Assembly (NCBI GenBank): GCA_048886685.1
Contig: JBHLKM010000006.1
Span: forward strand, 1 to 64,000
Source: Candidatus Hodarchaeota archaeon
Lineage (GTDB): Archaea; Asgardarchaeota; Lokiarchaeia; Sigyniarchaeales; SOKP01
DNA: 64,000 nucleotides
Direction of reading: 5' to 3'
Under the pieces are notes generated by a model. That model saw only the letters and a program-made list of their open reading frames with translations, did no database searches and had not been told where the DNA came from. Positions 1 to 26,036 of this stretch are shown piece after piece. A program made the translations under genes and the position numbers. Numbering within the stretch: position 1 is the stretch's first letter; every line of letters begins with the position of its first letter.

Positions 1-3000
1 GCTATAAACTTGCATCAATGCCTTATCATTTATGGAAATTTCTTCGGGATATTTAATTAAAAGTTCTGTTCCTACTCGTTCATCCCATTTCATCACTAGA
101 ATACCTAGTGGCTTTTGATCTTGAGACTTCTCAGGTTTATGTTTTAGCTTTATTTTAAGTGGTTTTTTACTTGTTTTAATTTCGATGCCTAATATATCTC
201 CTAATGAAAGTCCGATAGTACTCCATTTATCTCTAATTATCTCTCCAACAAAAACTTCTTTTGTTTGATATAATAGAGACTCTGAGATCGATTTTCCACC
301 TTTAATTTCTTTTTGCATCTGTCTTATATTTTTAACAAAGGTTGGAATTGTCGCATGTTTATATACCCTATAGCCTACTATGCTTCCCACGGTTGCAAGA
401 ATAGCAAATGTGATGATCAAAAAGTAGAAAGTTGGCATACCAGGGAAAATTTCTTCCATTTCAACTATAATTGTAATAATAAACTCTTCTGAGATATAAT
501 CTTCTCTAGTAATATTGATAATTCCCGTAAGAGTTTTTGAAGTGAAAAAAGCGTTCACATGGCTAGTGGGGAAATTAAGAATGTATGTCCCATTAATATC
601 CTCAATGAACTGATATTCAATACCACTTATTATTAGTTTAACAGAAGCATTTAAGAGAGGGATCCCTTCTTTCGTAAGATCTGTTAAATTGATCGCAATT
701 TGAACTATTTTTCCTTGGACAACATGTGTTTGAAAATTCTTAAAATTATTGCCCAAAGAATACTCAAGTTCTCGCATCTTAATAGAAAAACGAATCATTG
801 CATTTTTGTATTCATAATTATCCTTGTCTAAAGTAACAATTAATAAATATTCGCCAACAGTTCTGACTTCAGAGTCAAAATCTAAAATAAGAGAGTTGTC
901 ATATGCTTGAATTAATGTTCCTTCACCATTCGCAGTTACATTTCCATTCACATCATATTTCTCCCACATATAGGATTGAGTGGTTAAATCTGCGATTCTC
1001 GCACCTGTTAAGGCATCTGTATAGAAAAAGGTAAAATTAATTGCATCTTTAACATACATAGATTCTATTACTTTAGTAATTGTAGATTCCCCATTTATTA
1101 AGGTTAAACGATTCAATACAATGATATCCAAATCCTTTGATGCAGGATTATAGTTCTCATTATTTGCCCAAAACCTTACAGTATAATGGTCTGCATCTAT
1201 TAAAGAAGTGTCTATTGCTTGCAAATGGTAACTCAAATCGGGATAATATTCAACTATACCAGATATTCCAGGAGCTTCTCTAATCATATATGTGATCTCT
1301 CCTAAAGTTTCATAAGTACCTGTTCTTGAATAACTTATTTTGAAGGAGAGAGTAAAATTAACCGGTTGGTTAGTTTCTATCATAGCTGTGATTACAGTAT
1401 CTTTATTGAAACCGCTTAATGAAAACGTCCCTTGACCTAGAAGAGTATTAGAAATCTGAAATGTTTGGCCTCCAATGGTAATATTCATTGCAACTTCTGA
1501 TGGAAAGAGGTACTGGTTGCCACTTTTTATACCATTAATCAATAACTTCGCAAAGGTTTCTTTCCAATCGTTATTATTTAGACCCAATTGATAGGTTCCA
1601 CCATTAGGGACATTACTCTGTGTGTATGAAATATTCATGGTTTCTAAGCAGTTATTCTGGTAAAACTCTTGAATATACTCAACCTTAATTATTGCATTAA
1701 AAATGATATTTGGGTTGCTTTCAACAACAAATAGGTATTGATTGTCTATTGGGTATATGATTCTATCATCTATAGTTAATACTCCATTTCCATTCTCATC
1801 TCCAGAATTCAGGGAATATCTAAGACCATCAGCAATGGTAATGTTCAAAGTAGTAAGAACTGATAGGTTTACTTTCTGCCATGTAGAGGTGTCGTAGCAA
1901 TTTTGTATTATAAAGCTAACATTCTTAATTGCCCACCCTTGAGATTCTGATAAAATAGAAATTGTGTCTGAGATGTTAAATTTCATATACTGAACATTAA
2001 TTTCATTTCTAATGAAAGATGCATCGGCAACAATATCTATTGTGTTATCAAATGTTCCACTAATAATGAATTCGAAATAATTATCCTGGGTAGGGCTTTC
2101 TTTATCGATATTTAGGGTTATCCCTGTCCATACGCCCAGATTGTAGTCCCATCCAGCATGATTGGAAATGTTAAAAATTCTATTGACTCCAAAGGGATCT
2201 AAGATTGATAAATTTATATCAGACGCATTTACATTCCAAGAGATATTATATATATTGAAAGTAATCTTTGATAGATTCCAGCTAATGTAAATATTTGGGA
2301 GAGAAAACCTAAAACTGTGATCGGTACTCTGAAAAATATTTATTTCGGTAGTAAAACTTTCAGTAATTTCCCCATAAGCTTTTACTGATAAATCGATATT
2401 ATCTGACCAGTAGACTGATTGTATTGAGTCATCATTTTGAGATTGATTTATTATTAAATCATTTTTTAATACATTTAATTGCAGGAGTAACTCTTGAGGG
2501 ATCGAATATCCCGCTTTTTGAGCTGAAACAAAAATTAAATAAGTTACATCGCTTTCTAAATTTTTTGTATTGATAATTGAATAGTGTGTTCCAGTATAGT
2601 AACTTTCAATATCCAAAGTTTCAGATTGAATAAGATCTGCACCTTTAAATATTTCATATGCCATTAAATCGCTATAGGTCGGACCTAACAATTGTTCAGC
2701 TCCTATTGCTTTACTCACGTTAAATAAAATCCTTAACTTTAACTGAGAGCCCCATTTTACTGATATATATTCTGATGGGTTAAAAGAGATAAGTTCGGTT
2801 TCATAATTTTCTAATGAAACTTCAATATAAATGTAAAAGTCTTCTGTAGCAGATATTGTAAAATTGGCTTCTGTAACTAACGTTTTAGTAATACCGGTCA
2901 TATTAAACCACCTTGAAGCTCCGAAAAATTCAAGTTGTATTGAATAATTTCCATTTATACCAGAAGAATTTAGCCACCTTAGTGTTGCTTTTCCATCGTT

Positions 3001-6000
3001 ATTTGTTGTTAGATTTACAATACTTTCCTCCGTATTTGTATTAGTTAATAATAATTTTACCCCACCAACTGGTTCTTTAGTAATAAGTGTCAGAATATTA
3101 AAGTTAATTGTTGTCAAACTCGCTTGGACTTGAATTGAAGAATTTGGTGTAGTTAGATCCCCTGATGCAACTTTTATGATATTTGGATTATAATTGTTAT
3201 CTTGATAATAGACGGAATAATTATATTCATAAGGCGTAGTCTTCTTCCACCAAAATCGAGCGTGTCCATTACCATCAATCGAACAGTTTTGAAGTTCATG
3301 GGTGTTATTGCCAACTACAATCCAACCAGTATCCAAGAAAGCATCGTCTAAATCTACAACTTCAAAGAAATTCGAACTAACATTGCAAATTAAGTCGACA
3401 ATTTGAAATGATTGATTAACATTGATAGCTTCAGGTGTGATATTGATAATTTCAATATGATTTCCTATATCTGATGTAATACTAACGGTGAAATTATATT
3501 CTCCTTGAATCATATTCATGAATAAACTATTTCCACTAGAATCAGTACGATTACTTCTCATTAGGATAGTTTGATTATATATTGAGATATTTGCAGAAGA
3601 AATTGGATTTTTATACAAATCAATCGCCTTAACTTGAAGATTGCTATACAATATTCCCGCGACCCCCTGTTCTTGCCCTATTGAGTAAAATGAATTAGGA
3701 TCATATTGGTTATAATACTCTGTTTTAATCCAATGTTTTGAGTGAGAGATGTTTAAAACCCTAACCTCATCTAAAAGCCCATCAAAATCATATGTAGGAT
3801 TGGCACATTGAAAATCTTGATCTCCTGCAATGCTAAGCATAGTGCTTATATCTGTTCCGGATCCAATTTCTACACCGTTTTTATAGATATGAATTAGATC
3901 ATTCGTTCTATCAACGATTCCTACGATATAAATCCAAGAATCAAATATTATACTAGCGCTGGGGCTCCCAACATTACTAATTCCATCAGTAATATGAAAT
4001 GAAAAGCTATCTCCTGTTGTTGGAGTTCCAAAACAATAACCAGGGTCAAAAATACTAGACGCACCCTTGTAGAGAGGAAGTTGTAATGCCCCTGTACTTG
4101 TATCAATATTTATCCACATACTAACCATGAAACTGTCTGTACCGAAATCAAGATGTCCATCTGCAGGATTACCCACGTTGAAAGTACCATCAGTACCATA
4201 ATTGTATGCATTTCCGATCTGACCTGTCGATGGTCTTAGTACTGTACCGGTAACAATGCCATTTTCATTATAGGAAGTAGAATCTTCTGTAATCCCACCA
4301 GCTTCTGCAAGGTGCCACACGCCTTTATACGAACCATCCCACACGCCTGTAGGATTCTCACGAGAAGTCATAGTAGAGTTTCCATAATACATTCGAATAT
4401 AGGTATCTAGAGAAGTTGATAGTGCTGGAATTCTTACCCAAGTTACCAATTCCGCATGTGTTCCATTATAATCTTTGTTAAATAATTCAATTTCATAGTC
4501 CAGCCAATTAGGTCCTAAGGCAAAAGCGATATCATCACCATCTGCTTGTACGTCACTGTGTAAATCAGAATCAAAAATAGAAATTAGTAGGGGAAAGTTT
4601 GAATGAACTCCCATTCCAAAAACTCTTGTATGGTCAATTATTATTAATTTATTATAATTGAAAATGTGAGCATTAGAGGGGATATCATTAGTAGTTTCGA
4701 TGACACTACTAATAGAATAAAATAAATTAGGATCTTTTTGATTTTCATATCCAGTAGCAATCCAACCATTAGAACGAGCTACATTAGAGATCCGTACCTC
4801 GTCAATTATGCCATTAAAATCTTCTGAATCAACAGTAATAGCTGAACCAATTGATATGTTTTTGGAAGATTGTATAATTTGACCAGGTGTATTATCTAAT
4901 TCTGAATTAGCTAACGAACCGTCAGTATAAATAAGTAATTGTGAAGAATCTCTCACTCCAACTAAATGATGCCAATTATTACCAGTAATCTCGGAGTTAG
5001 AATATACTGTTTGCTGCGCTCCTGAGATTTTCATTGTGAATCTCCCCTCGTTTAAATGACCAGTATCGTCACAAATATTTATCGCCCATGCTTCTGTATC
5101 ATAATATAAACTCTGTGTTACAATATAATAATCATCAGGTATTGTTGAATCGGGAGTTTTCATCCAAACCTCAACGGTAAATTCTATTAGTTGAAGCTCA
5201 TTACCAGTACCAGGCATTTCAATATAGTCTGTTTCTGCTCGAACAAACTCATGACCACCATCTATCATTGAAGATGAGGTGGATGAAGCACCTGTAACAA
5301 TACCATCATAACCATTAAAAGTTGAGTCAAATACAGGTCCACTTATTTCACTCAAATGCCAAACACCAATATAATTTGAATCCCAAACCCCATGAACGTT
5401 TTCTTGAGATTCCATCGAGGAATTTCCGTAATACATACGAATTTTTGTATCTTCAAATGGAGAAAGTTTCGGAATACAAACCCAAGCTACCAGTTGAGCA
5501 TGCGTACTATTATAGTTTTTATTAAACAATTCAATTTCATGAAATAACCATGAAGTACCATTATTAAAAGCGATATCATTACCATCTAATTGAGTTTCAT
5601 TATGTAAATCTGCGTCAAAAATAGAAATCAATACTGGAAAGTTAATTAAATTACTTGTTCCAGAAACCTTCGTATGATCAAATGTTATTTCTTTAAAATA
5701 TTTAAAATCAAAAATGTTAGGGACATATACTTTTTTAGCATAACCTACAAAAATAAAATTATCTGGATCATTTTGGTTGTTATATTCCGTTTTAACCCAA
5801 TCTGATGATTGTGGTATATCTAAGATACGAAATTCATCAATAATTCCTTCAAAAGGCTCATTCCATATACTATTTCTAGCGAGCCAAATGTCTTTATTAC
5901 TATCTGGAATATTTCTCGTATCTGAATAAGTACCAACCAAATTTCCATCCCTAAAAAACCTCATTTGATTTTTATCATACGTTCCTACAATATAGTACCA

Positions 6001-6960
6001 TGTATTTATTGAAAGCACAATATCAGATTGGGCTTGTTCATTATACGTTGAGTCTCCAGCAAAATCTATTCTAAAAACTGCACGATCAGAATTTGGGGCA
6101 TCAGTAGCCCTAGCATATAATTGCCAGTCATACCAAGAATCATCAAGATTATTTCTTTGAGCAATGGTATGCCAACTTTGATCCAATCGGGTAGGATAGA
6201 TCCACGCACTTACTGTCATAAAATTAGAATTTAAGGGATCAGGAAATCGAATATAATCATCATTACCATCAAATTCTATACCACCATTAATTTTGCCAAA
6301 AACTTGATCACTACTAGACATAGATCCTCCTGAAGTACCATCCTTACTGTTTAATGTACTATCTTTAATTTGTGGTGATAACACAGATGGATCCTCTTCT
6401 AAATGCCATACCCCCTTATAATTTTCATTCCATACTCCTGTAGGATTTTCTCGAGTTTCCATAAAGGGATTTCCATAATACATTCGAATTTTTGTGTCAT
6501 TTGTCGGAGAAAGTACTGGAATTCGCACCCAGGCAACCAGATGGGCATGAGTTGCATTATATGCCTGATTATACAATTCTATTTCATGATCTAACCATTG
6601 AAAATTATTGGAAAAAGCAATATCATTACCATCAGACTGAGTGTTATCATGAAGATCTGAATCAAAAATTGATATTAATAGAGGAAAATCAACAAAATCT
6701 TCTGTACCAGAGACTCTTGTATGATCAATTGTGATTATTTTATAATATTCAAAATCTCCAGCATTACTTGGATGATTTGTAGAAGCTAGTGGTTTTTCTC
6801 TTTCCGAATATACTTCAGTATTACCTTTTTTATTCATTCTATTAAGCAGTGTAAACAAAGTAGAATTGAAACTCATCACAATGATTAGTATGATTAGCAA
6901 GTATCCTAGGGATTTGGTTCTGTTAATTTTCCATCTGAAATTCTTTTTATTTATTATCAT
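1..6960 (-). CDS. Giant type-I membrane protein, paralog A: 3x DUF2341+LamG ectodomain, stalk, TM, start of cytoplasmic longin-like domain; 3' end runs off the window
   Basis: Manual translation from ATG at 6960 (in-frame alternative ATG at 6978): MIINKKNFRWKINRTKSLGYLLIILIIV...FPLLISIFDSDLHDNTQSDGNDIAF...; the frame is still open at position 1 (...ISINDKALMQVYS), collinear with 7092..15053 (2320 vs 2328 codons to the same residue). Absent from the ORF track because there is no stop in the window. Confidence 0.93.
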   Translation of the reverse strand, partial: MIINKKNFRWKINRTKSLGYLLIILIIVMSFNSTLFTLLNRMNKKGNTEVYSEREKPLASTNHPSNAGDFEYYKIITIDHTRVSGTEDFVDFPLLISIFDSDLHDNTQSDGNDIAFSNNFQWLDHEIELYNQAYNATHAHLVAWVRIPVLSPTNDTKIRMYYGNPFMETRENPTGVWNENYKGVWHLEEDPSVLSPQIKDSTLNSKDGTSGGSMSSSDQVFGKINGGIEFDGNDDYIRFPDPLNSNFMTVSAWIYPTRLDQSWHTIAQRNNLDDSWYDWQLYARATDAPNSDRAVFRIDFAGDSTYNEQAQSDIVLSINTWYYIVGTYDKNQMRFFRDGNLVGTYSDTRNIPDSNKDIWLARNSIWNEPFEGIIDEFRILDIPQSSDWVKTEYNNQNDPDNFIFVGYAKKVYVPNIFDFKYFKEITFDHTKVSGTSNLINFPVLISIFDADLHNETQLDGNDIAFNNGTSWLFHEIELFNKNYNSTHAQLVAWVCIPKLSPFEDTKIRMYYGNSSMESQENVHGVWDSNYIGVWHLSEISGPVFDSTFNGYDGIVTGASSTSSSMIDGGHEFVRAETDYIEMPGTGNELQLIEFTVEVWMKTPDSTIPDDYYIVTQSLYYDTEAWAINICDDTGHLNEGRFTMKISGAQQTVYSNSEITGNNWHHLVGVRDSSQLLIYTDGSLANSELDNTPGQIIQSSKNISIGSAITVDSEDFNGIIDEVRISNVARSNGWIATGYENQKDPNLFYSISSVIETTNDIPSNAHIFNYNKLIIIDHTRVFGMGVHSNFPLLISIFDSDLHSDVQADGDDIAFALGPNWLDYEIELFNKDYNGTHAELVTWVRIPALSTSLDTYIRMYYGNSTMTSRENPTGVWDGSYKGVWHLAEAGGITEDSTSYNENGIVTGTVLRPSTGQIGNAYNYGTDGTFNVGNPADGHLDFGTDSFMVSMWINIDTSTGALQLPLYKGASSIFDPGYCFGTPTTGDSFSFHITDGISNVGSPSASIIFDSWIYIVGIVDRTNDLIHIYKNGVEIGSGTDISTMLSIAGDQDFQCANPTYDFDGLLDEVRVLNISHSKHWIKTEYYNQYDPNSFYSIGQEQGVAGILYSNLQVKAIDLYKNPISSANISIYNQTILMRSNRTDSSGNSLFMNMIQGEYNFTVSITSDIGNHIEIINITPEAINVNQSFQIVDLICNVSSNFFEVVDLDDAFLDTGWIVVGNNTHELQNCSIDGNGHARFWWKKTTPYEYNYSVYYQDNNYNPNIIKVASGDLTTPNSSIQVQASLTTINFNILTLITKEPVGGVKLLLTNTNTEESIVNLTTNNDGKATLRWLNSSGINGNYSIQLEFFGASRWFNMTGITKTLVTEANFTISATEDFYIYIEVSLENYETELISFNPSEYISVKWGSQLKLRILFNVSKAIGAEQLLGPTYSDLMAYEIFKGADLIQSETLDIESYYTGTHYSIINTKNLESDVTYLIFVSAQKAGYSIPQELLLQLNVLKNDLIINQSQNDDSIQSVYWSDNIDLSVKAYGEITESFTTEINIFQSTDHSFRFSLPNIYISWNLSKITFNIYNISWNVNASDINLSILDPFGVNRIFNISNHAGWDYNLGVWTGITLNIDKESPTQDNYFEFIISGTFDNTIDIVADASFIRNEINVQYMKFNISDTISILSESQGWAIKNVSFIIQNCYDTSTWQKVNLSVLTTLNITIADGLRYSLNSGDENGNGVLTIDDRIIYPIDNQYLFVVESNPNIIFNAIIKVEYIQEFYQNNCLETMNISYTQSNVPNGGTYQLGLNNNDWKETFAKLLINGIKSGNQYLFPSEVAMNITIGGQTFQISNTLLGQGTFSLSGFNKDTVITAMIETNQPVNFTLSFKISYSRTGTYETLGEITYMIREAPGISGIVEYYPDLSYHLQAIDTSLIDADHYTVRFWANNENYNPASKDLDIIVLNRLTLINGESTITKVIESMYVKDAINFTFFYTDALTGARIADLTTQSYMWEKYDVNGNVTANGEGTLIQAYDNSLILDFDSEVRTVGEYLLIVTLDKDNYEYKNAMIRFSIKMRELEYSLGNNFKNFQTHVVQGKIVQIAINLTDLTKEGIPLLNASVKLIISGIEYQFIEDINGTYILNFPTSHVNAFFTSKTLTGIINITREDYISEEFIITIIVEMEEIFPGMPTFYFLIITFAILATVGSIVGYRVYKHATIPTFVKNIRQMQKEIKGGKSISESLLYQTKEVFVGEIIRDKWSTIGLSLGDILGIEIKTSKKPLKIKLKHKPEKSQDQKPLGILVMKWDERVGTELLIKYPEEISINDKALMQVYS

Positions 6961-7091
6961 CTTATACCTTTTTTTCATATTTAAGTCAAATGTTCTTAAA
7001 AAATCATAAGGCAATTTAGGTATTTATTTTTAGAGTAAGAAAGTAGTAAAAGGAAAAAAAACAATTTTATAGATCCTATATTTTTCTTCTA

Positions 7092-10000
7092 TTATTTTTC
7101 GGATTTCAAATTATAATAGATTTCTTCAAGTAAATTGAGATATTGAAGCAATACTTTATCAGATTTAGACTTTTGATCATTTGCTGACTTAATGACGTTT
7201 ACCAGATATTTAGGGAACAGGAGATCAATAAAGAAGTCTGTTAAGAGCGTATAATATTCTATTCCATTCTCATCCTTGAAGACTTTTATCATATTTGTAT
7301 CCCATAGCTTTTTTAATACCCTATAAATATCACTAACTCCTTTATTTTTTAATTTCTCAAAATCTTTCATCGTAACTATGGCAGTTCTCAATAAACGGAT
7401 TGTTTCATACACTTCAGGATCAATTAAAATGGAGAGAAGCTCAATATTATCCTCTTCGGTTGGGTGATATTCATTAAAGAATTTCTGAACTTCATCTTGA
7501 TAAAGCTTAGTAAGTTGTGCCGGTAAGCCATGATTCACGGGATCTTTAAATAATGTGTCAGGAGGCACCCGCAACATGAAAATATCTTTTGTAAGAAAGA
7601 TGAGTTCGGAAGGAATTCCTTTTACTGAAGTTACTTTTATTATCTCCCACCTAATAAGGTTAGCTAGAATTGCTTCTAGATCGATAATACCTTCTAAATC
7701 TCTATCTTTTACCCAAATATTCAGTTCTGATTTGGTAATCACCCCATAATTTCTTAAGATATTAAGAATCATTCGTTTGATATCGTCATGATAAGAAAAG
7801 ATAAGATTTTGTTCATTAGTAAGAGAAGGATAAACTGATAAACGCTGGAAAAGTGAAGGAATCATTTGTAGATAGGAATCATCATCACGGTTTTGAAGAA
7901 TCACTTGCGCGACATTGGGCATTGCTTCTTCATAGATGTCTGGATCATCATCTAATGTCAAAAATAAAATGATATAATAACCTAATTCTGGTCCTGTATA
8001 ATATGATAAAATATTCATTGAACCGAAGGTAAGATTTATAATTCCTTTTTCCCCAGAATATTCATGAGTGCTATAAATTTGCATCAATGCCTTATCATTT
8101 ATAGAAATTTCTTCTGGATATTTAATTAAAAGTTCTGTTCCTACTCTTTCATCCCATTTCATCACAAAGATACCTAACGGTTTTTGGTCTTGAATCTTCT
8201 CAGTTTTATGTTTTAGTTTTGTTTTAAGTGGTTTTTTACTCTTTTTAATTTCGATTCCTAAGATATCTCCTAATGAAAGTCCGATAGTACTCCATTTGTC
8301 TCTTACTATCTCTCCAACAAAAACTTCTTTCATTTGGTATAATAGGGATTCTGAGATGGGTTTATTGTTTTTGATTTCTTTCTGCATCTGTCTTATATTC
8401 TTAACAAAGGTTGGAATTGTTGCATGTTTATATACCCTATAGCCAACTATGCTTCCAATAATCGCAATAACACCGAAAATAATGATTAAAAAGTAGAAGG
8501 TTGGCATACCAGGGAATATCTCTTCCATTCCAACTACAATTGTTATAAAAAATTCTTCTGAAAAGTAATCTTCCCTAGTTATATTGATAATTCCAGTTAG
8601 AGTTTTTGATGCGAAAAAAGCATTGACATTATTGGTACGAAAATTAAATCTGTATGTTCCGTTAACAGACTCATTGAAATGATATTCAATTTCATTTATT
8701 ATAAGTACTACAGAAGCATTTAACAGAGGAATCCCTCCCCGTGTAGGATCGGTCAAGTTTATTTGGATGGGAACTGTATTACCATGAGCAATGTCTAGTC
8801 GATAATTTTTAAAATTATTGCTTAAGGAGTACTCAAATTCTCGTATTTGGACGGTAAAACGAATCATGGCGTTTTTATATTCATAATTATCTTTATCTAA
8901 TGTAACAATTATTAAATATTCGCCAGCAGTTCTGATTTTAGAGTCAAAATCTAAAACATAAGATCCATCATCTTCTTGAATTAGGGTTCCTTCGCCGTTT
9001 GCTGTAACATTTCCATATAAATCGTACCTTTCCCACATATAATACTGAGTCTTTAAATCTATAATACGAGCCCCTGTTAAAGCATCTGTATATAAAAATG
9101 TAAAATTATATTCATCTTTAATATACATGAATTCTATGACTTTTGCTATTGCTGACTCCCCATTTATCAAGGTTAAGCGTTCAATTACAATAAAATCCAA
9201 ATCTTTTGTAACGGAATTGTAATTTTCTTTATCTACACGAAATCTCATGGTATAATGGTCTGCATCTATTAAAGATGTATCTATCGTTTGAAAATATTCT
9301 CCCAAACTGGGATAATAGCTAACAACTCCAAATATTTGAGGAGATTCTCTAATCACATAGTTTACTGTTCCTAAAGTTTCATAAGCAACATTTCTTGAAT
9401 AACTTATTTTAAAGGAAAGACTAAAGTTAATTGGTTGGTTCGTTTCTATTACCGCTGTGATTATGGAATCTTTAATTAAATTATTTAATGAGATTGTTCC
9501 TTGACCCGGAAGAGTGTTTGATATTGTATATGTTTGACCTCCAATCGTAATATTCATCCCAACTTGAGAGGGATATAGATATTCACTGCCACTTTTTATA
9601 TCATTAACTAATAATTTTGCATAACCTTCCTTCCAATCATCATTTTCTAAACTTAATTGGCAAGTTCCTCCATTTGGAATACTCTGCTGTATATAAGAAA
9701 CATTTACAGTCTCTAAGTGCGTGTTCTGATAAAAAGCTTGGACATATTCAACCTTAATAATGGCATCAAAAATAACATTGGGATTACTTTCAACTGTAAA
9801 TATATATTGATTATCTAAAGAATAAATGGTTCTATCATCTATTATTAATATACCATTACCATTTTCATCTCCAGAATGAAGAGAATATTTAAAGCCATCA
9901 GGAGTAGAAATATTCAAATTAGTAAGAACGGAAAGGTTTACTTTCTCCCAAGTAAGGGTGTTGTAACAGTTTTGAATTATAAAAGTACTATTTTTAATTG

Positions 10001-13000
10001 CCCATCCTTCGGATTCAGATAAAAGAGAAATGGTATTCGAGATGTTATATTTCATGTATTGAACATTAAGATCATTTCTAATGAAGGATGCATCGGCGAT
10101 TACATCTATTGTATTATTGAATGTTCCACTAATAATAAATTCAAAGTTATTATCGTGTGTAGGGCTTTCTTTATTCATAACTAGGGTTAATCCGGTCCAT
10201 ACTCCGAGATTATAATCATATCCTGCATGATTAGAGGTATTAAATATGCTATTGATGCCATAGGGATCTAGGATGGATATATTTATATCAAACACATTAA
10301 CGTTCCATGAGATATTATAAATGTTGAATATCATTTTTGTTAAGTTCCAGTTTGAGTTAATACCTGGGAGCGAAAATCTAAAGCTATGATCGATATCCTG
10401 AAAAATGTTCGTTTCAGTAGTAAAACTTTCAGAAATTTCCCCATACGCTTTTACCGAAAAGTCGATACTGTCTGACCAATAGACTGATTGTATTGAGTCA
10501 TCATTTTGCGATTGATTTAAGACTAAATCATTTTTTAAAATATTTAATTGCAGGAGTAGGTCTTGAGGAATCGAATATCCTGGTTTTTGGGCTGAAACAA
10601 ATACAATATAAGTTACATCGCTTTCTAAATTTTCTGTATTGATAAATGAATAATGAGTTCCCTTGTAATCTTTTTCAATGCCCAAATTCCCAGATTGAAT
10701 AAGATCTGCTCCTTTAAATATTTCATATTTCATTATATCGCTATAGGTAGGGCCTAATAAATGTTCAGCTCCTATCGCTTTACTTACATTAAATAATATC
10801 CTTAATTTCAACTGGGAACCCCATTGAACAGAAATGTATTCTGTTGGATTTAATGAGATGAGTTCTGTTTCATAATTTTCTAATGAAACTTCAATATAAA
10901 TGTAAAAGTCTTCTGTAGCAGATACTGTAAAATTTGTTTCTGAAACTAACGTTTTAGTAATACCAGTCATATTAAAATTTCTTAAAGCTCCAAAGAATTC
11001 AAGTTGTAAAGAATAATTCCCATTTATCCCTGAAGAATTCAACCACCTTAATGTGGCTATGCCATTATTATCGGTGGTTAAGTTAACAATGCTGTCTCCT
11101 GTAGTGGTAGTTAATAATAATTTTACCCCGTCTACTGGTTGTTTAGTAATAAGCGTTTTTATATTAAAATTAACTGTTGTTAAACTCGCTTGGACTTGAA
11201 TTGAAGTGTTGGGTGAAATTAGATCCCCTGATGCGACTTTAACAATATTTGGAATATAATTATTATCTTGATAATAGACGGAATAATTATATTGATAAGG
11301 AAGCGTGTTTACCCACCAAAATCTTGCCTGTCCGCTACTATCGATCGAGCAGTTTTGGAGCTCATGAGTGTTGTTACCAACTAAAATCCATCCAGAATCC
11401 AAGAAAACACCGTCAATATCAACTATTTCAAAGAAATTCGAACTGACATTACATATTAAGTCAACTATTTGAAACGATTGATTGATTAAGATCGCTTCGG
11501 AGGTAATATTTACAATTTCGACGTAATTTCCAATATCTGAAGTTATCGAAGCAGTAAAATTATATTCTCCCTGAATTAAGTTAAGAAATGAGGATATCCC
11601 ATCATTATTTGCTATACCACTTTGGATTAAATTTGTATGATTGAAAATTGAAACATTTGCATAAGGTAAAGAATTTCCATATAAATCCATAACATTAACT
11701 TGAATGTTGCTGTAAATCGTTCCTCCTTGACTCTGCTCATTTCCTATTGAGTAAAAAGAATTAGGATTATATTGATTATAATATTCCGTTTTAATCCAGT
11801 TGTTAGATCGCGTTACATTTAAAACCCTAATCTCATCTAATAAACCATCAAAATCGTATGAAGGATTCGCACATTGAAATTCTCTAGTGCCATCTATAGT
11901 GAGGATTGCACTTATACTTGTGCCGGAACCTACTTCATAGCCATCCTTATAAATACGAATTAAATCGTTTGTTCTATCAACCATTCCTATTATATATGTC
12001 CAAGAATCGAATGTTATAGCGGCACTAGGGCTCCCCACATTACTAATTCCATCAGTAATATGAAATGATAAACTATCCCCCGTTGTTGGAGTTCCAAAAC
12101 AATAACCTATATCAAAAGTACTAGAACCCCCTTTATAAAGTGGAATTTGTAATGCTCCTGTGCTTGTATCAATATTTATCCACATACTTACCAAGAAACT
12201 TTCTGTTCCAAAATCAAGATGTCCATCTGCTGGATCTCCTACACTGAAACTACCATCAGTCCCATAATTATATGCATTCCCTATTTGACCTGTTGTTGGG
12301 CGTAAAATTGTCCCAGAAATAATGCCATTTTCATTATAAGAAGTAGAATCTACTGTAACCCCACTAGTTTCTGCAAGGTGCCATACGCCTCGATAAGATC
12401 CATCCCACACACCATTTGGGTTTTGATGAGAATTCATAGTAGAATTTCCATAATACATTCGAATATAGGTGTCTAGTGAAGCTGAAAGTTCAGGTATTCT
12501 TACCCAAGCACTCAGACGTGCATGTGTTCCATTATAATTTTGATCAAATAGTTCAATCTCGTGATCTAGCCACACAGATCCCAGAGAAAAAGCAATATCA
12601 TCACCATCTGCTTGAACATCATAATGTAAGTCAGAATCAAAAAAAGAGATTAATAAAGGAAAATTAGAATGACCTCCCTCACCAAAAATTCTCTTATGAT
12701 CAACTTTAATAATTTTATAATAATTGAAATAAGATTCATTAGGGGGAATTTCATCTTCAACTTTGGTTTCATTGCTTAAAGAATAGAAATTGTTTATATC
12801 CATTTGATTATTATACTCCGTTTTTATCCAATCAACTGATCTTGCAACTTTTGAAACACGGACTTCATCAATTTGACCAAGCCAAGGATAAGTCCATACT
12901 TCTCCTTCAGGGTGATCACCGTGTCCGATCCTAAAGGGATATGGGAGTGCTGACAAAATATTATCACTTTTGACGAGAGTGTTTGTGTCCTGTACTCCAT

Positions 13001-21169: not shown

Positions 21170-22423
21170 ATGTCAAACTCCAACCAAGCTAAACAAGATA
21201 CAGAAGGTATACATTTATCTGAGCATATGAAAGAAGATATTTCTGTTGAAGAATTAATAGATTATTCATCAACAAGGAGAATTGCTTCGATAGATTTTGT
21301 AAAAGGTCTTGCTATGGCATTTATAATTTTAGCTCATTCAGCACTTGCCTGGTTTGATGACGATTGGCGTTATATCTATGGGCTTGTTTTTTCATTTCTA
21401 GATATTTTAGGGCCTTCTTTATTTGTATTTTTATCTGCTCTTAGTGTGATTTTTAGTATTAAACGAAAGAAAAAGAAAGTATCTGAAAAACTTATTCGAA
21501 ATCGAATAATTACTCGTGGTATCGTAATAGTTATTATTGGTATCTTATTTAATCCGATGTCATTATTTACTTCTGGAGAAAAAATTTCATTTCCTCTTAA
21601 TTTGTGGGGCTGGAATTTTCTTGTATTCATTGGATTCTCGCAGATATTCTCCTATTATGTATTAAAAATCAAACAAATTCCTCGTGCTGCTATTGGTGTG
21701 TTTATAATTATAATTTCACCTTTCATTAGGCAAGTTATTTTTGAAATTAAGGATGTAAATCCTGGTTTCTGGCTTTTACATTTTCTAATAACATCACCTC
21801 TACCTCAAGTACCATTTCTCCCCTGGCTCGCAGTTTGCTTTATTTCTACTATATTTGGAGAGTTTTTATATGATGCAATGATAAAGGGTACAAAAGAAGC
21901 ATATATCCATTTATTTCGAGTTTTTTCGGCCTATGGAATTGTACTTGTTTTAACAGGGCTAATACTAGGTTGGGGAAGACAAACACCTGCTACAATGAAA
22001 GTGTCAGAATATTTGCATTTAGATTTACTAAGAATTGCAAACGAACAAGACTATTACCAATTTGCTGGTATGCCTGATTTTATGATTAGGAGTACAATGT
22101 CAAATATGTTCTACAATTTAGGAGCAGCTCTACTAATTATAGCTGTTAGTTTTTACTTCATTGATATTAAAAGAAAAGAAAATGATGTTATAAAGATGGT
22201 AATATTTTATGGAAAAACTAGCCTCTCATTGTTTCTAATTCAATATTTATTTCTTCCACTCTACATTGGGCAGTTTTCAATAATATTTTTCCCGTTAATG
22301 TGGATAGGATATTGTGGCTTTTTAGGGTTGCTGATGTATGTATGGTATAAATATTTCAATGGTGTAGGCAGCCCTGAATGGTTAATGACTAAACTTGGGC
22401 AATTGGGGCAGAAACCCAAATAA
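21170..22423 (+). CDS. DUF1624 / HGSNAT-like membrane acyltransferase (paralog of 18171..19565)
   Basis: RRIASIDFVKGLAMAFIILAH; shares LDILGPSLFVFLSALSVIFSIKRK and GVGSPEWLM with the paralog. Confidence 0.75.
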   Translation: MSNSNQAKQDTEGIHLSEHMKEDISVEELIDYSSTRRIASIDFVKGLAMAFIILAHSALAWFDDDWRYIYGLVFSFLDILGPSLFVFLSALSVIFSIKRKKKKVSEKLIRNRIITRGIVIVIIGILFNPMSLFTSGEKISFPLNLWGWNFLVFIGFSQIFSYYVLKIKQIPRAAIGVFIIIISPFIRQVIFEIKDVNPGFWLLHFLITSPLPQVPFLPWLAVCFISTIFGEFLYDAMIKGTKEAYIHLFRVFSAYGIVLVLTGLILGWGRQTPATMKVSEYLHLDLLRIANEQDYYQFAGMPDFMIRSTMSNMFYNLGAALLIIAVSFYFIDIKRKENDVIKMVIFYGKTSLSLFLIQYLFLPLYIGQFSIIFFPLMWIGYCGFLGLLMYVWYKYFNGVGSPEWLMTKLGQLGQKPK

Positions 22424-22681
22424 TCTAATAAAATAGAAACTCAATTTGTCGCTTGTAAGTTTAATATTAAGAAAGAAGGATAAATCATAAAAATTTCATC
22501 TTTTAAAATCAACCATTCTTCTCTTTGTAAATATATAAATATCTTTGAAGAATAATATGAAATATTAATGAGTGAATTTATTATAACTATAATTCATTAA
22601 TTTCATATTAAATTAAATTAATCAAATTTAAAAATTTTAAGGAGATATAATTAATATTTATTTCTGATAAGGAGCATTAAC

Positions 22682-23206
22682 ATGTCGGAGAAAGGACAGT
22701 ATAAATTCAAGGTAACTCTTTTTGGACCAGGTGGTGTAGGAAAAACATCCTTGCTATTAAGATATATAAAAGACTACTTCAGTGATGACCTAAAAAAAAC
22801 GATTGGGAGTAATTTCCTTATTAAAGATGTTGAAATTGATGGAAAAAATGTCCGTCTCCTCCTTTGGGACATTGGAGGGCAACCTCAATTCCATAAACTT
22901 AGAACAATTTATTTTAAAGGGAGTAATGGGGCTCTTGGCGTATTTGATTTATCTTCAAGTCAAACCCTTTTAAAAATTCCTGGTTGGATAAGTTCTATAA
23001 AAAAAACCGTAAAAAAAGCAATCCCGATGATCCTCTTAGGTAATAAAGTCGACTTGGACAGAGAAGTAGATAAAGAAGAAGCCGAAGATCTAGCAAAGAG
23101 ATTAAGTTGTGAATATATGGAAACGTCTGCTAAAACAGGAGAAAATGTAGAGCAGGCATTCGAAGAAATTGCTAGAGCTTGTCTGCAAGATGTAGAGGAA
23201 ATATAA
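22682..23206 (+). CDS. Rab-like small GTPase
   Basis: G1 GPGGVGKT, switch I TIGSNF, G3 WDIGGQ, YFKGS, G4 NKVD, G5 ETSAK; GGAG SD upstream. Confidence 0.93.
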   Translation: MSEKGQYKFKVTLFGPGGVGKTSLLLRYIKDYFSDDLKKTIGSNFLIKDVEIDGKNVRLLLWDIGGQPQFHKLRTIYFKGSNGALGVFDLSSSQTLLKIPGWISSIKKTVKKAIPMILLGNKVDLDREVDKEEAEDLAKRLSCEYMETSAKTGENVEQAFEEIARACLQDVEEI

Positions 23207-23233
23207 TATAATCTGATTAATTTTTTTTTAACC

Positions 23234-23854
23234 TTATAAAATCTGTAAATTTTTAAGTTCTTTAACCAGATCTTCTTTATTTGTAAATTTTATTCCAATT
23301 ATCCCAAGTTCTCGAGCTGTTCGAATATTGTTTATCCCATCATCAATATAAACTATCTCCTCTGGTTCACATCCTGCCTTTTCGATAGCATATTCGAATA
23401 TTTTTTTATCAGGTTTAGTCATATGAACTTCATGAGATAAGATAAATTCATCAAAATATTCAAGGAACGCCCATTTTTTCTTAAGAAGAAACTCCCAATG
23501 ACTAGAATTTACATTTGAGAGACAAAGAAGCTTGAATTTGTTGTTTTCTTTTACTTTTTTTATTATCTCAACGATTTCGGGGTTGAAACCAGAAATTATA
23601 CTGTTAAAAGCTCCGTAAAAATTGTTCTGATCAAGCTCGCAAACTTGGAGCAAATCACATGCTAAATGATAAAATTCATCATCACTCATCATTCCTTGAT
23701 GATATATATCAGATTGACGGAAAAATTCTAACATAATTGGAGTCTGAGGTTTATTTAGAGGTGATTGAGAAATGATTTTATTATAGAAATTTGCAAAATC
23801 TAAATCCACTACAACTCCGCCTAAATCAAAGATAATAGATTTGATTGCATTCAT
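23234..23854 (-). CDS. HAD-superfamily phosphatase
   Basis: IIFDLGGV, LSN, KPD, YIDD. Confidence 0.88.
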   Translation of the reverse strand: MNAIKSIIFDLGGVVVDLDFANFYNKIISQSPLNKPQTPIMLEFFRQSDIYHQGMMSDDEFYHLACDLLQVCELDQNNFYGAFNSIISGFNPEIVEIIKKVKENNKFKLLCLSNVNSSHWEFLLKKKWAFLEYFDEFILSHEVHMTKPDKKIFEYAIEKAGCEPEEIVYIDDGINNIRTARELGIIGIKFTNKEDLVKELKNLQIL

Positions 23855-25911
23855 TTTCTAAAATAGATTTTAGTTGAGAACTTTCTAAAAGGTTTTGGTA
23901 GTTTATATCTTGGAAAATTTCTTGTATCATCTTCTAGCATTTCTAATAGTTTATCTATTTTTATATCATTAATTTGGTTAGATGTCTGCCTTTCTGGGCC
24001 AAAGGGTTCACCTATCAATCTTTTTCTTATTGATATAGTTTGATTTTGTTGTTCTTTTTTACCAATTATAATTGTATATGGAATCCAATCAATTTCGGAC
24101 TGTCTTATTTTTTTGCCAACTGTTTCTTCTCTGTCATCGAAATCTACTCTAAATTCCTCTCCATTGAGAATATCAAGAACTTTCTCAGCATATTCATTTT
24201 GATCATCAGAAACCGTTACAATCCGGACTTGAATTGGGGATAACCAAGTTTTAAATCCTGGAACCAACTTATCCTTATTTCGGATAGCTGATTCTATTAA
24301 ACCCCATATAACTCTCTCTACAGCACCAGTTGGAGAATTGTGAAGAATTATCGGATGTTTTAATTGACCATCATCATCTGTGAAAGATATATTATATTTC
24401 TGTCTTTCTATTCCGTCAGTATCCCTCATATATTCTAAAGAGCTCTCTACATCTATTTGGTTGGTTGCTAATGTAGCACTTTTACCCTGAGCTGAAAGTA
24501 CGTTCCTTTCAAACTTTAATATATAATAATAGTATCTCTCATCCCATAGTTCTAATAACGTAGGATTTTTTTCTGATTTAACTAAATCAATTATCCAATC
24601 CTTATTTTCGCTATAAAACTCTTGTGTTGCTCTAAAAATAACATAACTTTTAATACCTAAATCGTGTTCAAGGTCCTTTATTAATTCGTATTGTTTTTTA
24701 AACTCATCAATGGAAGATTCTAAATCTTTACACATTGTATGCATGTCTGGCATTGTAAATCCACGAAGTCTTCTTAATCCTGATAACTCTCCTTCTTGTT
24801 CACGTCTAAAAGCGTATTGTTCATATTCATATGCTCTTAATGGGAGATATTGTGGTTTCAAATTCATCTGTGAAAACAAATCAAAAAGAAGAAAGTCACT
24901 CGCATATCTTAATAGATATCTATCTTTTCCTGATTCAACCCAATAACTTCTAGCGGGAAATCGGGCCGTTTGGGCAGTTAGCTTCTTATTTTTCACTGTA
25001 TACATAACAGGAGTGTCAACTAGTACTGCCCCATAATCTATTAATCTATCTTCTATGAAATTTTTTATTAGGTTTTTCATAATAACTCCTTTTGTGTACC
25101 ATCTAAAATTACCAGCATCAGTGTTAGAATCAAAATCTACTAATTCAAAATCTTTCATCACCTTTATATGAACAGGTTCTATTGATTTATCTACGATTCG
25201 AGAACCTAATTCAGAATATAGAAAGGAAATAAACTCTTTATCTTTAATCTCTTTTGGAAGTAAGAACTTCTGATTTTCATCAAAATTTAAATCAATTTCC
25301 CTACCATCTGTATTAATTAATTTGAAGACGGAGTTTTTAAGTTCTTCCTCTGGTTTAATGGCTAATTTGACGTCACGGTACATTTCAGCTATTTCATGTC
25401 CTAAGCAGTTTATTTTAAATGATTTATACCAGCCAAAAGGAGAAAATTTTGCCTCAATTCCCCTCTCTTCTAAATTTTTAGCAATTTTAGGACATACTTC
25501 CATTGCTTTAGCATCATTACTAAGAAACTTGCTTAAATGAGCCCAAGGATATACCAGAACTTTATCTACATGGTACATGTTTCTATCTTTAATAAGATCT
25601 ATTAATTTCCTCGGTTTTCCTTTAATTTCTCCTTTTTCGATTTTTCGATTAAATTCTCTTATCTCTTCATTTTTTTGATTCACCTGTTCTGGAAATCCTG
25701 TAATTAGCAATATTGCTGATTCAATCTCATCCGCGCCTTGTTTTGCAATTAAATCTGTATCGTATGTGTCTTGATCTTCAACAGACACATAACAAACCAA
25801 GACGAGACCTTCCATCTTAATATAATCCTCAGCAAACTCTTGGGGATTGCTGGTTGCTTCTTTATTTTTAATGACTTCTACATCTTGCGAGTGAATTAAC
25901 AAGATTTTCAT
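23851..25911 (-). CDS. thrS: Threonine--tRNA ligase, archaeal type with N-terminal editing domain
   Basis: MKILLIHS, YPWAHLS, PFGWYKSF editing domain; FRREQEGEL.GL.RLR.FTMPDMHT; WLSPIQVR; anticodon-binding domain. Confidence 0.96.
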   Translation of the reverse strand: MKILLIHSQDVEVIKNKEATSNPQEFAEDYIKMEGLVLVCYVSVEDQDTYDTDLIAKQGADEIESAILLITGFPEQVNQKNEEIREFNRKIEKGEIKGKPRKLIDLIKDRNMYHVDKVLVYPWAHLSKFLSNDAKAMEVCPKIAKNLEERGIEAKFSPFGWYKSFKINCLGHEIAEMYRDVKLAIKPEEELKNSVFKLINTDGREIDLNFDENQKFLLPKEIKDKEFISFLYSELGSRIVDKSIEPVHIKVMKDFELVDFDSNTDAGNFRWYTKGVIMKNLIKNFIEDRLIDYGAVLVDTPVMYTVKNKKLTAQTARFPARSYWVESGKDRYLLRYASDFLLFDLFSQMNLKPQYLPLRAYEYEQYAFRREQEGELSGLRRLRGFTMPDMHTMCKDLESSIDEFKKQYELIKDLEHDLGIKSYVIFRATQEFYSENKDWIIDLVKSEKNPTLLELWDERYYYYILKFERNVLSAQGKSATLATNQIDVESSLEYMRDTDGIERQKYNISFTDDDGQLKHPIILHNSPTGAVERVIWGLIESAIRNKDKLVPGFKTWLSPIQVRIVTVSDDQNEYAEKVLDILNGEEFRVDFDDREETVGKKIRQSEIDWIPYTIIIGKKEQQNQTISIRKRLIGEPFGPERQTSNQINDIKIDKLLEMLEDDTRNFPRYKLPKPFRKFSTKIYFRK

Positions 25912-26036
25912 GTTAAATCATTTTTTTTGATTGTTAACTAGTACCTTATAATAAATTCTAAATACTTTACTTACTTTTGATATATAATTATATACAGAAT
26001 TCAAAATAATTGTTACTATAATTTATCTCTATAATT

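What the first reader, a model, noticed from the sequence alone, without database searches (positions are those of the whole stretch)
3700..14510. Swapped LamG cassettes: distal binding domains unrelated between otherwise highly similar paralogs
Seen: the paralogs align at DNA level across the DUF2341 spacers, LamG3 (about 3710-4320 vs 11775-12390), stalk, TM and tail (roughly 85-90% by eye in the tail). The LamG1 and LamG2 cores share only fold-level motifs. LamG1: A (5800-6400) EEDPSVLSPQIKDSTLNSKDG...WHTIAQRNNLDDSWYDWQ vs B (13880-14490) SESNGSAEDSTSYGTDG...DTFIISKRTGLSQSSTGY. LamG2: A (4765-5350) SEISGPVFDSTFNGYDG...YIVTQSLYYDTEAWA vs B (12835-13425) TEIGNGTPNEYFDSS...MGPFNHKGFYDGY. Similarity drops right after GVWHL and returns at DE.R...W..T.Y.NQ. 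B-LamG1 shares PADGHLDF with LamG3. Inference: recombination at conserved flanks exchanges whole specificity modules at the receptor tip, generating a diversified repertoire for partner recognition or virus evasion on a constant signalling base.
Basis: partly seen in the sequence, partly recalled or inferred. Interest (0 to 1): 0.85.

Follow-up and report, generated by a model that had tools for sequence, protein, structure and literature searches.

The report
Swappable lectin cassettes on Asgard receptors
Two neighbouring giant surface-protein genes of an Asgard archaeon share one scaffold but carry unrelated outer lectin-like domains, because about 650-base domain cores are exchanged as cassettes by recombination; this mix-and-match way of varying a cell surface is known elsewhere but not described for this family or phylum in the papers I searched.

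Summary
Genes A (window 1-7014, minus strand, cut by the contig end) and B (7092-15053, minus strand) are tandem paralogs. Each has three DUF2341-LamG units, an Ig-like stalk, one TM helix and a cytoplasmic tail. They are 75-90% identical in protein everywhere except the LamG1 and LamG2 cores, which are 7-25% identical. Identity drops at GVWHL and returns at DE.R..W.KTEY.NQ.

The recombination interpretation is supported by relatives from other metagenomes.
- B's positional ortholog P0003 is 90-98% identical in DNA throughout, yet its LamG1 is unalignable.
- A's LamG1 core is 88-100% identical in DNA (dS 0.27) to the core of P0054, a protein with a different backbone. The flanking DUF2341 modules there are saturated (dS above 2).
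- Topology tests reject agreement between cassette trees and the stalk tree.
- In this subfamily, position 1 has 13 cassette types, position 2 has 7, and position 3 has one.

The scaffold itself is also mosaic, so gene conversion of conserved parts happens as well. I found no reverse transcriptase, invertible repeats, silent cassette archive or DNA-level junction site, so ordinary homologous recombination or gene conversion is the likely mechanism. Ligand, partner or virus roles and signalling remain inference.

This is a new variant of a known kind. Unchecked first-reader notes on other contigs of this genome had proposed the same idea.

The parts
1..7014 (-). Gene A: giant type-I surface protein (2338 aa seen; the C-terminal tail is cut by the contig end). 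Cassette types in order [24,12,1].
   Evidence: P0032 in the protein database is this same gene.
7092..15053 (-). Gene B: complete paralog, 2653 aa. Cassette types in order [11,0,1].
6400..6753 (-). A DUF2341-1, the conserved frame module that ends in GVWHL.
   Evidence: 78% aa identity to B DUF2341-1; HMM domain.
5839..6399 (-). A LamG1 core cassette (type 24). The shared tract with P0054 spans nt 5776-6426.
   Evidence: 28% aa identity to B LamG1. 88-100% nt identity and dS 0.27 to P0054 unit 1, whose DUF flanks have dS 2.1-2.9. The clade with P0054_1 has support 99/92.
5350..5706 (-). A DUF2341-2.
4804..5349 (-). A LamG2 core cassette (type 12).
   Evidence: 25% aa identity to B LamG2. 95-96% aa to P0028_2, 86% to P0024_2, 61% to P0042_2.
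4309..4662 (-). A DUF2341-3.
3772..4308 (-). A LamG3 core (type 1), the constant membrane-proximal LamG.
   Evidence: 79-80% aa identity to B LamG3. Type 1 is the last unit in all 29 subfamily proteins.
505..3654 (-). A stalk of beta-sandwich (CarboxypepD_reg-like / Ig-like) domains.
   Evidence: 75% aa identity to the B stalk. The Pfam hit is below its cut-off.
370..429 (-). A transmembrane helix.
14490..14843 (-). B DUF2341-1.
   Evidence: 92% aa identity to P0003 DUF2341-1.
13911..14489 (-). B LamG1 core cassette (type 11).
   Evidence: Unalignable with the ortholog P0003, whose flanks are 90-98% nt identical. Nearest relatives are 54-67% identical and sit at positions 1, 2 or 3 of other backbones; clade support 98/97.
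13425..13778 (-). B DUF2341-2.
12870..13424 (-). B LamG2 core cassette (type 0, the commonest type).
   Evidence: 90-91% aa identity to P0003_2. Type 0 is found at positions 1-6 and 8 in 37 units.
12375..12728 (-). B DUF2341-3.
11838..12374 (-). B LamG3 core (type 1).
8574..11720 (-). B stalk, with 36 N-x-S/T sequons.
8439..8498 (-). B transmembrane helix.
7092..8438 (-). B cytoplasmic tail (about 448 aa). The first half is conserved but of unresolved fold. The C-terminal half is two winged-helix domains.
   Evidence: AF2 model pLDDT is 75-95 for tail residues 225-459 and below 35 for residues 78-224. Generic WH matches at Z 8-9.7. No Pfam, NCBIfam or PDB sequence hit.

Best explanation
A and B belong to a multigene family of giant type-I surface proteins of an Asgard (Promethearchaeota) archaeon. 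The head is built from slots. Each slot is a conserved DUF2341 module plus the first strand (GVWHL) and the last strand and helix (DE.R..W.KTEY.NQ) of a LamG jelly roll. Between these frame elements lies a core of about 190 aa (about 0.65 kb with the motifs). It is replaced as a unit by homologous recombination or gene conversion, with other family members or with DNA from related species. The protein-level conservation of the frame supplies the homology.

The outermost slot turns over fastest, the second more slowly, and the membrane-proximal LamG3 travels with the stalk. In this genome both LamG1 slots hold types (24 in A, 11 in B) that differ from type 5. Type 5 is the type found in the positional orthologs of both genes in two related species. 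The LamG2 slots hold two old, widely shared types (12 and 0). Within a type the cassettes are under purifying selection, so diversity comes from exchange, not hypermutation.

Shown: the mosaic structure, the breakpoints, the tree incongruence and the turnover gradient.

Inferred: that the cores are the ligand-binding parts, that the selective agent is changing partners, glycans or viruses, and that the tail signals.
For: (1) B against P0003, which has the same ATP-grasp neighbour and belongs to a species about 82% identical in flanking genes: 90-98% nt identity across the aligned ~7.4 kb except B aa about 170-425. Backbone dS is 0.21-0.38; LamG1 is saturated.

(2) A against P0054, a different subfamily whose closest backbone here is C19 at 53%: the LamG1 tract A aa 197-413 is 88-100% nt identical, with dS 0.27 and dN/dS 0.22. 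DUF2341 on either side has dS 2.9 and 2.1, and the rest is unalignable. The tract ends in VWN.NY.GVWHL and W[IV]KTEY.NQ.

(3) A against P0028, the tandem positional ortholog: dS is 0.24 for DUF1, saturated for LamG1, 0.23 for DUF2+LamG2, 0.73 for unit 3 and 1.0 for the stalk.

(4) 456 cores fall into 168 types at 55% identity or more. Subfamily architectures recombine the types: [11,0,1], [5,0,1], [5,12,1], [5,18,1], [24,12,1], [34,0,1], [34,35,1] and others.

(5) AU tests. Subfamily LamG1 cores as one clade: p = 8e-5. A1+B1 as a clade: p = 2e-52. Stalks grouped by shared cassette type are rejected: type 5 p = 7e-78, type 34 p = 1e-6, type 12 p = 4e-5, type 35 p = 9e-4.

(6) Among 99,874 unit pairs there are 39 'transfer' pairs (core 80% or more, DUF flanks 72% or less) and 3 'replacement' pairs. 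Breakpoints of 25 pairs cluster at -4 aa from the end of GVWHL and +7 aa from DE.R.

(7) The DUF2341-LamG unit folds as one rigid body (pLDDT 96, pTM 0.93). The frame motifs are strands and a helix at the domain's N- and C-terminal edges. The fold matches ConA-like lectin jelly rolls.

(8) There is no RT in the genome, no inverted repeats around the cassettes and no excess synonymous conservation at the junctions.
Against: - No donor above 45% identity for any of the four cassettes was found in this genome or in 51 other species representatives of the genus. The actual events and their direction are therefore inferred from non-representative metagenome proteins.
- DUF2341 modules within the genome are only about 67% nt identical. 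The median exact in-register run is 14 nt and the maximum 27 nt. That is short for classical homologous recombination between paralogs.
- The aa-level breakpoint estimates are biased towards motifs that are identical in every pair.
- All comparison sequences are metagenome assemblies.
- The cassette-type groups were fixed before the stalk tree was built, but the AU tests were run after the tree had been seen.
Confidence: 0.85

Rival explanations
1. Concerted evolution only. A and B are old paralogs that always had different LamG1/2 domains. The DUF2341 frames, LamG3, stalk and tail look similar because gene conversion keeps homogenising them, and the cores themselves never move.
For: - Backbone synonymous divergence is patchy: pS is 0.31-0.78 along A/B, and dS is 0.23 against 1.0 along A/P0028.
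- B/P0003 backbone dS (0.21-0.38) is below that of the flanking housekeeping genes (0.44-0.91).
- Three paralogs on one 793-kb contig (P0033, P0042, P0048) have nearly identical stalks under different heads.
- LamG2 types 0 and 12 recur in a distant subfamily whose stalks cluster by genome.
Against: - It cannot explain an island of dS 0.27 (the A-P0054 cassette) inside flanks with dS above 2.
- It cannot explain the same type sitting at positions 1, 2 and 3 of different architectures.
- It cannot explain type 5 being shared at 81-85% by an A-ortholog, a B-ortholog and P0018, whose DUF1 modules are 73-78% identical and whose LamG2 types differ.

It is best seen as a second process acting alongside cassette exchange.
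Confidence: 0.08
2. In-place hyper-divergence. LamG1/2 cores descend from the same ancestral cores and diverged beyond recognition through strong diversifying selection or relaxed constraint.
For: A/B backbone dS is about 0.5-1.5, so a neutrally evolving segment could reach dN of about 0.8-1.0, close to what is seen in the cores.
Against: - B and P0003 differ by only 2-10% in the DNA flanking an unalignable core.
- The cores have relatives at 74-96% identity in other proteins and are under purifying selection within a type (dN/dS 0.22).
- The AU test rejects an A1+B1 clade.
- Synonymous signal in the cores is at saturation, while the flanks are not.
Confidence: 0.02
3. A programmed variation system acting within a cell lineage: a diversity-generating retroelement, an invertase shufflon, or pilin-like copying from silent cassettes.
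For: The layout of conserved frames and variable cores resembles such systems.
Against: - No RVT_1 hit in the genome, which is scored 100% complete.
- No template copy of any core in the genome.
- No inverted repeats bracketing the cores.
- Junction motifs show no conservation of silent sites.
- The neighbouring genes are housekeeping genes.
- The cores differ by indels and at all four bases.
Confidence: 0.03
4. Assembly artefact: metagenome assemblers joined different paralogs or strains at the conserved DUF2341 repeats.
For: These genes break assemblies. A, P0003 and P0028 all end at contig ends, and C31 is an orphan tail of a third paralog.
Against: - Exact matches between DUF2341 modules are at most 27 nt, which I judge shorter than typical final assembly k-mers.
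- Shared cassettes come from different samples and differ by about 8% rather than being identical.
- All the mosaics are intact reading frames of more than 2000 aa.
- The pattern recurs in dozens of proteins from NCBI, JGI and ENA sources.
Confidence: 0.02

Closest known systems
VARTIG module of Thermococcales (Makarova et al. 2021, PMC8416519)
   Same: It is an archaeal large surface protein in which one distal beta-sandwich domain is hypervariable. The cause is recombination between genes of different species, so the sequence types do not follow the species tree.
   Different: In VARTIG the variable part is a C-terminal Ig domain, and small downstream genes act as cassette donors in a polymorphic-toxin-like locus. 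Here the variable parts are one or two N-terminal LamG cores framed by DUF2341. There are no downstream cassette genes, the proteins are TM-anchored with a large cytoplasmic tail, and the taxon is Asgard. The paper does not mention Asgard or LamG.
Polymorphic toxin / CDI / Rhs systems (PMC3482391)
   Same: A constant delivery scaffold plus a variable end domain swapped by recombination at a short conserved junction motif. For this comparison, the VENN motif in CDI is from my own knowledge.
   Different: There is no toxin domain, no immunity gene and no orphan cassette array here. The variable domain is a lectin-like binding fold, it is internal or N-terminal, and two slots vary independently.
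Mosaic receptor-binding proteins of phages, and bacterial surface adhesins with exchanged binding domains (general knowledge)
   Same: Binding-domain modules are exchanged by homologous recombination at conserved linkers, which produces host-range or ligand mosaics.
   Different: Here it is a cellular multigene family (14 ORFs with 28 units in one genome). Viral contigs hold only relatives at 25-39% identity.
Pfam DUF2341 (PF10102) + Laminin_G_3 (PF13385) proteins
   Same: A and B are clear members of both families.
   Different: None of the nine papers that mention DUF2341, judging by their titles and abstracts, concerns cassette exchange or Asgard receptors.

Membership tests
Pfam DUF2341 (PF10102) | Profile match above the gathering score. 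| tested here: met
   65.6 bits for B and 64.3 bits for A against a cut-off of 23.4, three stretches each.
Pfam Laminin_G_3 (PF13385), ConA-like lectin/glucanase superfamily | Profile match above the gathering score, and a jelly-roll fold. | tested here: met
   174.7 and 188.9 bits against a cut-off of 27.6. The AF2 unit model has pLDDT 96. Foldseek gives E about 1e-8 and TM about 0.5 to lectin-like jelly-roll domains.
VARTIG (Thermococcales) | An arCOG07710 Ig-domain protein with a hypervariable C-terminal Ig domain and downstream small cassette genes. | tested here: not met
   The variable domains are N-terminal LamG cores. Downstream of B lies the paralog A, and upstream lie housekeeping genes. 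It works like VARTIG but is not a member.
Polymorphic toxin systems | A C-terminal toxin domain with an adjacent immunity gene and orphan toxin cassettes. | tested here: not met
   No toxin family is found in A or B. The C-terminus is a conserved cytoplasmic winged-helix tail. No small ORF partner is present.
Diversity-generating retroelement target | A reverse transcriptase plus a template repeat nearly identical to the variable region. | tested here: not met
   No RVT_1 match in the genome. No second copy of any core above 45% aa identity.
Invertase shufflon / phase-variable cassette | Inverted repeats bracketing the segments and a nearby site-specific recombinase. | tested here: not met
   Only two weak inverted repeats, both inside the stalks. 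The neighbours are ATP-grasp, HTH, acyltransferase, GT87 and Ras-like GTPase genes.
Longin/uDENN or ESCRT-II-like cytoplasmic module (proposed in earlier notes) | A recognisable longin/roadblock fold, or the tandem winged-helix arrangement specific to ESCRT-II. | tested here: inconclusive
   The conserved first half of the tail was modelled at pLDDT below 35. There is no Pfam, NCBIfam or PDB sequence hit. The C-terminal half matches generic winged-helix domains of many families; ESCRT-II is only one of them (Foldseek E = 3e-3, TM 0.26; VIA Z 8.2).

The most novel reading that the evidence does not exclude
The family is a recognition-receptor repertoire of Asgard archaea. Combinatorially exchanged lectin heads sense partner-cell or viral surface glycans. 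They are coupled through one TM helix to a conserved cytoplasmic module, which also exists as stand-alone soluble proteins, and which relays contact to the Asgard small-GTPase or membrane-remodelling machinery. [quoted passage not shown]
Probability: 0.15. Interest if true: 0.9.

Novelty: new variant of a known kind. Interest (0 to 1): 0.66.

Why it matters
Cultured Lokiarchaeia have no ordered S-layer. They carry 'complex surface proteins' on a single membrane, and these are thought to mediate the cell-cell contacts of their syntrophic life (PMC9834061).

This locus gives a concrete, testable candidate for such proteins. It also shows how their outer binding domains are diversified. Ready-made lectin cores of about 650 bp are exchanged between family members and between species, inside a frame that is conserved at the protein level.

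It offers three things:
- a defined cassette unit with mapped junctions, useful for domain-swap experiments;
- a natural catalogue of 168 or more core types;
- evidence that gene flow between Asgard species is locally higher at these genes than at the neighbouring housekeeping genes.

I found no paper describing this in full-text searches.

Tried and rejected
- Donor search in the own genome and in 51 species representatives of the genus found nothing above 45% for the A1 and B1 cores. A2 and B2 were searched only in the own genome. Close cassette relatives appeared only in the large protein database.
- The viral contig scan with alignment A2 failed for lack of conserved stretches. With the single unit it found only relatives at 25-39% identity, so there is no sign of virus-borne donors.
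- The tail was examined with Pfam at E up to 10, NCBIfam, a PDB profile search and the Atlas. No named family emerged, only stand-alone Asgard hypothetical proteins. Foldseek and VIA gave generic winged-helix matches. I therefore dropped the ESCRT-II and longin readings as claims.
- The same-codon test in the cores is only suggestive, because most identical columns at 20% identity may be chance matches.
- GC3 of B's two cores (0.30 against about 0.22 in the flanks) is a weak hint of foreign origin, roughly 2 standard errors by my estimate. A's cores do not show it.
- The NCBIfam TafC hit (53.8 bits against a cut-off of 410) reflects LamG-like similarity only.
Full report
WHAT IS THERE

The first 15 kb of the window hold two minus-strand ORFs in tandem. 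B runs from 15053 to 7092 (2653 aa). A runs from 7014 to 1 (2338 aa) and is cut by the start of contig C6.

Both genes have the same layout:
- an N-terminal hydrophobic signal or anchor;
- three units of DUF2341 (118 aa) plus Laminin_G_3 (about 215 aa);
- about 1050 aa of beta-sandwich stalk rich in N-x-S/T sequons;
- one TM helix;
- in B, a cytoplasmic tail of about 448 aa.

Names attached to database relatives place the organism in the Asgard phylum Promethearchaeota. The genome is 4.4 Mb in 47 contigs, and the window has about 31% GC.

CHECK OF THE OBSERVATION

A global alignment gives 75-93% protein identity everywhere except two blocks. LamG1 is 15-25% identical and LamG2 is 7-25% identical, both with many gaps.

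By module:
- DUF2341: 78%, 75% and 77% for units 1, 2 and 3.
- LamG: 28%, 25% and 79% for units 1, 2 and 3.

DNA identity is 72-91% in the conserved parts and 36-48% in the two cores.

A FIRST CAUTION

A and B are not recent copies. Backbone pS is 0.31-0.78 (dS roughly 0.5-1.5), with dN/dS of 0.05-0.25. On that time scale a neutrally evolving segment could in principle reach the dN seen in the cores.

The A/B pair alone therefore cannot separate three explanations: cassette swap, divergence in place, and homogenised flanks. The synonymous test hints at an older origin for the cores. The same codon is kept at identical residues in 40% of cases in the cores, against 63-79% elsewhere and a saturation expectation of 45-48%. 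At 20% identity this test is weak.

THE FAMILY IN THIS GENOME AND GENUS

The genome has 14 ORFs with 28 DUF2341-LamG units. All DUF2341 modules are 53-79% identical to one another whatever their gene or position. Most LamG cores are only 25-40% identical to each other.

No core in this genome is closer than 44% to A1, A2, B1 or B2. No species representative of the genus is closer than 43% to A1 or B1. The head query matched 12 of 17 genus members and none of 13 genomes from other genera of the order.

THE DECISIVE COMPARISONS

A search of the 5.8-billion-protein collection returned 1080 relatives, including close ones from other metagenomes. I cut 456 cores out of the best 120 proteins and clustered them at 55% identity or more. 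This gave 168 types.

Within the A/B subfamily the stalks are mostly 62-88% identical to B; seven more distant members (46-50%) were also included because they carry type 1. The last LamG is always type 1. Position 1 shows 13 types and position 2 shows 7. The types occur in many combinations:
- B [11,0,1]
- P0003 [5,0,1]
- P0028 [5,12,1]
- P0018 [5,18,1]
- A [24,12,1]
- P0024 [28,12,1]
- P0014 [34,0,1]
- P0029 and P0034 [34,35,1]

Three pairs were examined at DNA level.

(i) P0003 is B's positional ortholog. It has the same ATP-grasp neighbour, and its flanking housekeeping genes are about 82% identical in DNA to those of the window (dS 0.44-0.91). The two genes are 90-98% identical in DNA (backbone dS 0.21-0.38), except B aa about 170-425. 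There they cannot be aligned.

(ii) P0028 is A's positional ortholog in a third species, where it again lies downstream of a B-like gene. dS is 0.24 in DUF1, saturated in LamG1, 0.23 in DUF2+LamG2, 0.73 in unit 3 and 1.0 in the stalk.

(iii) P0054 belongs to another subfamily. Its closest backbone in this genome is the C19 gene at 53%. It nevertheless shares A's LamG1 core at 88-100% DNA identity (dS 0.27, dN/dS 0.22). The DUF2341 modules on either side have dS of 2.9 and 2.1. The tract begins in the codons for VWN.NY.GVWHL and ends in those for W[IV]KTEY.NQ.

Case (iii) cannot be produced by homogenising flanks or by divergence in place. The cassette itself moved.

FORMAL TESTS

In a tree of LamG1 cores:
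- A1 groups with P0054_1 (support 99/92) and then P0085_1 (100/99).
- B1 sits inside a clade of seven cores taken from positions 1, 2 and 3 of other backbones (98/97).

AU tests reject a single clade of the subfamily's position-1 cores (p = 8e-5). They also reject an A1+B1 clade (p = 2e-52).

Conversely, the stalk tree rejects grouping the holders of a shared cassette type:
- type 5: p = 7e-78
- type 34: p = 1e-6
- type 12: p = 4e-5
- type 35: p = 9e-4

The groups were fixed by the clustering, before the stalk tree was built. The tests, however, were run after the tree had been seen.

A scan of 99,874 unit pairs found two kinds of mosaic:
- 39 pairs with the core 80% or more identical but both DUF flanks 72% or less;
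- 3 pairs with both flanks 85% or more identical but the core below 45%. Two of these three are the A and B genes themselves.

Two-breakpoint fits to 25 such pairs place the 5' change 4 aa before the end of GVWHL (IQR -5 to +20). They place the 3' change 7 aa after the D of DE.R (IQR 6-20). These pairs are not independent, and motifs that never vary limit the resolution.

THE SCAFFOLD ALSO RECOMBINES

Several results show that the conserved parts have their own mosaic history:
- dS varies several-fold along A/B and along A/P0028.
- The B/P0003 backbone is younger than the surrounding genome.
- In the stalk tree A pairs with P0071, which is the upstream, B-positioned gene of the third species.
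- Three paralogs on one 793-kb contig have almost identical stalks under three unrelated pairs of heads.

MECHANISM

- I found no reverse transcriptase in the genome.
- No inverted repeats bracket the cores.
- No orphan or silent cores were found.
- No recombinase is among the neighbours.
- Silent sites of the junction codons are no more conserved than expected from codon usage.

The frames are thus conserved for protein reasons, and recombination uses them opportunistically. Between orthologs of related species the DUF2341 arms are 90-95% identical, which is ample for homologous recombination after DNA transfer. Between paralogs they are about 67% identical, with exact runs of 14-27 nt. Such events must therefore rely on short homology and are probably rarer. 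This last step is inference.

STRUCTURE

One unit (B aa 71-425) folds with pLDDT 96 and pTM 0.93 as a single body. GVWHL is a strand at the DUF2341/LamG junction. DE.R lies in the long last strand. W.KTEYNNQ is a helix, and FYSIG is a final strand. The exchanged part is everything between these elements.

Fold matches are to ConA-like lectin jelly rolls in general.

FUNCTION (INFERRED)

The proteins are TM-anchored and predicted to be glycosylated. They reach outward on a long stalk and have lectin-fold tips. The turnover gradient, with position 1 above position 2 and position 3 constant, fits a distal ligand-binding role under changing selection. Purifying selection within each type fits working binding modules.

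Cultured Lokiarchaeia lack an S-layer and show complex surface proteins thought to serve cell-cell interaction (PMC9834061). I cannot tell whether the selective agents are syntrophic partners, substrates or viruses.

The tail's C-terminal half is two generic winged-helix domains. Its conserved first half is unresolved. The tail also has stand-alone soluble homologs in Asgard genomes. 'Signalling' remains a hypothesis.

COMPARISON AND NOVELTY

The closest archaeal precedent is VARTIG in Thermococcales. There a distal Ig domain is shuffled between species (PMC8416519). That paper reports no comparable variability elsewhere in archaea and does not mention Asgard or LamG. Polymorphic toxins and phage receptor-binding proteins use the same logic.

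None of the membership criteria of those systems is met, so this is a new variant of a known kind of system. [quoted passage not shown]

Unchecked first-reader notes on other contigs of this genome proposed the same cassette idea. I did not use them as evidence.

Noticed in passing
window 7092-15053 compared with L019:10001-17458, and window 15360-27658 compared with L019:1-9418: The backbone of B is more similar to its ortholog in another species (91% nt, dS 0.21-0.38) than the flanking housekeeping genes are (82% nt, dS 0.44-0.91). This suggests recent gene flow between species at this locus specifically.
   Followed up: partly
window 18171-20939: An Acyl_transf_3 gene and a GT87 glycosyltransferase gene lie between blocks that are syntenic with L019, but they are absent from L019. 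This is an indel of glycan-modifying genes about 3 kb upstream of the giant glycoprotein genes.
   Followed up: partly
window 22682-23206: A 174-aa Ras/Arf-like small GTPase (Pfam Ras, 168 bits) is conserved in synteny with the other species and lies about 7.6 kb upstream of B.
   Followed up: no
window 7092-8438 (B tail); also G000:C11:166703-167380, C5:101125-101493 and C12:100548-100904: The cytoplasmic tail has stand-alone homologs. These include about 30% identical ORFs elsewhere in the genome, and Atlas clusters of 360-377-aa Asgard hypothetical proteins scoring 0.97. The tail's first half, which is the best conserved part, could not be modelled.
   Followed up: partly
G000:C31:1-3651: This is the orphan 3' part of a third close paralog, 74-75% aa identical to both A and B. 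Its head is not assembled. A, P0003 and P0028 also end at contig ends, so these genes break assemblies and the true repertoire is probably larger.
   Followed up: partly
window 12870-13424 and 13911-14489: B's two variable cores have higher GC (0.40-0.41) and GC3 (0.30) than their flanks (GC 0.32-0.35, GC3 about 0.22). A's cores do not differ from their flanks. This is a weak hint that B's cassettes came from a less AT-rich donor.
   Followed up: partly
L022:5001-6017 and L023:5001-5963 (IMG/VR contigs of 141 kb and 42 kb): Whole DUF2341-LamG units at 28-30% identity occur on contigs classed as viral. I did not check whether these are real viral genes or misclassified cellular DNA.
   Followed up: no
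L020:1-17714 compared with G000:C19: The related species carries an extra tandem family member (P0054) between genes that are adjacent on C19 of this genome. Copy number of the family therefore varies by tandem gain or loss.
   Followed up: partly
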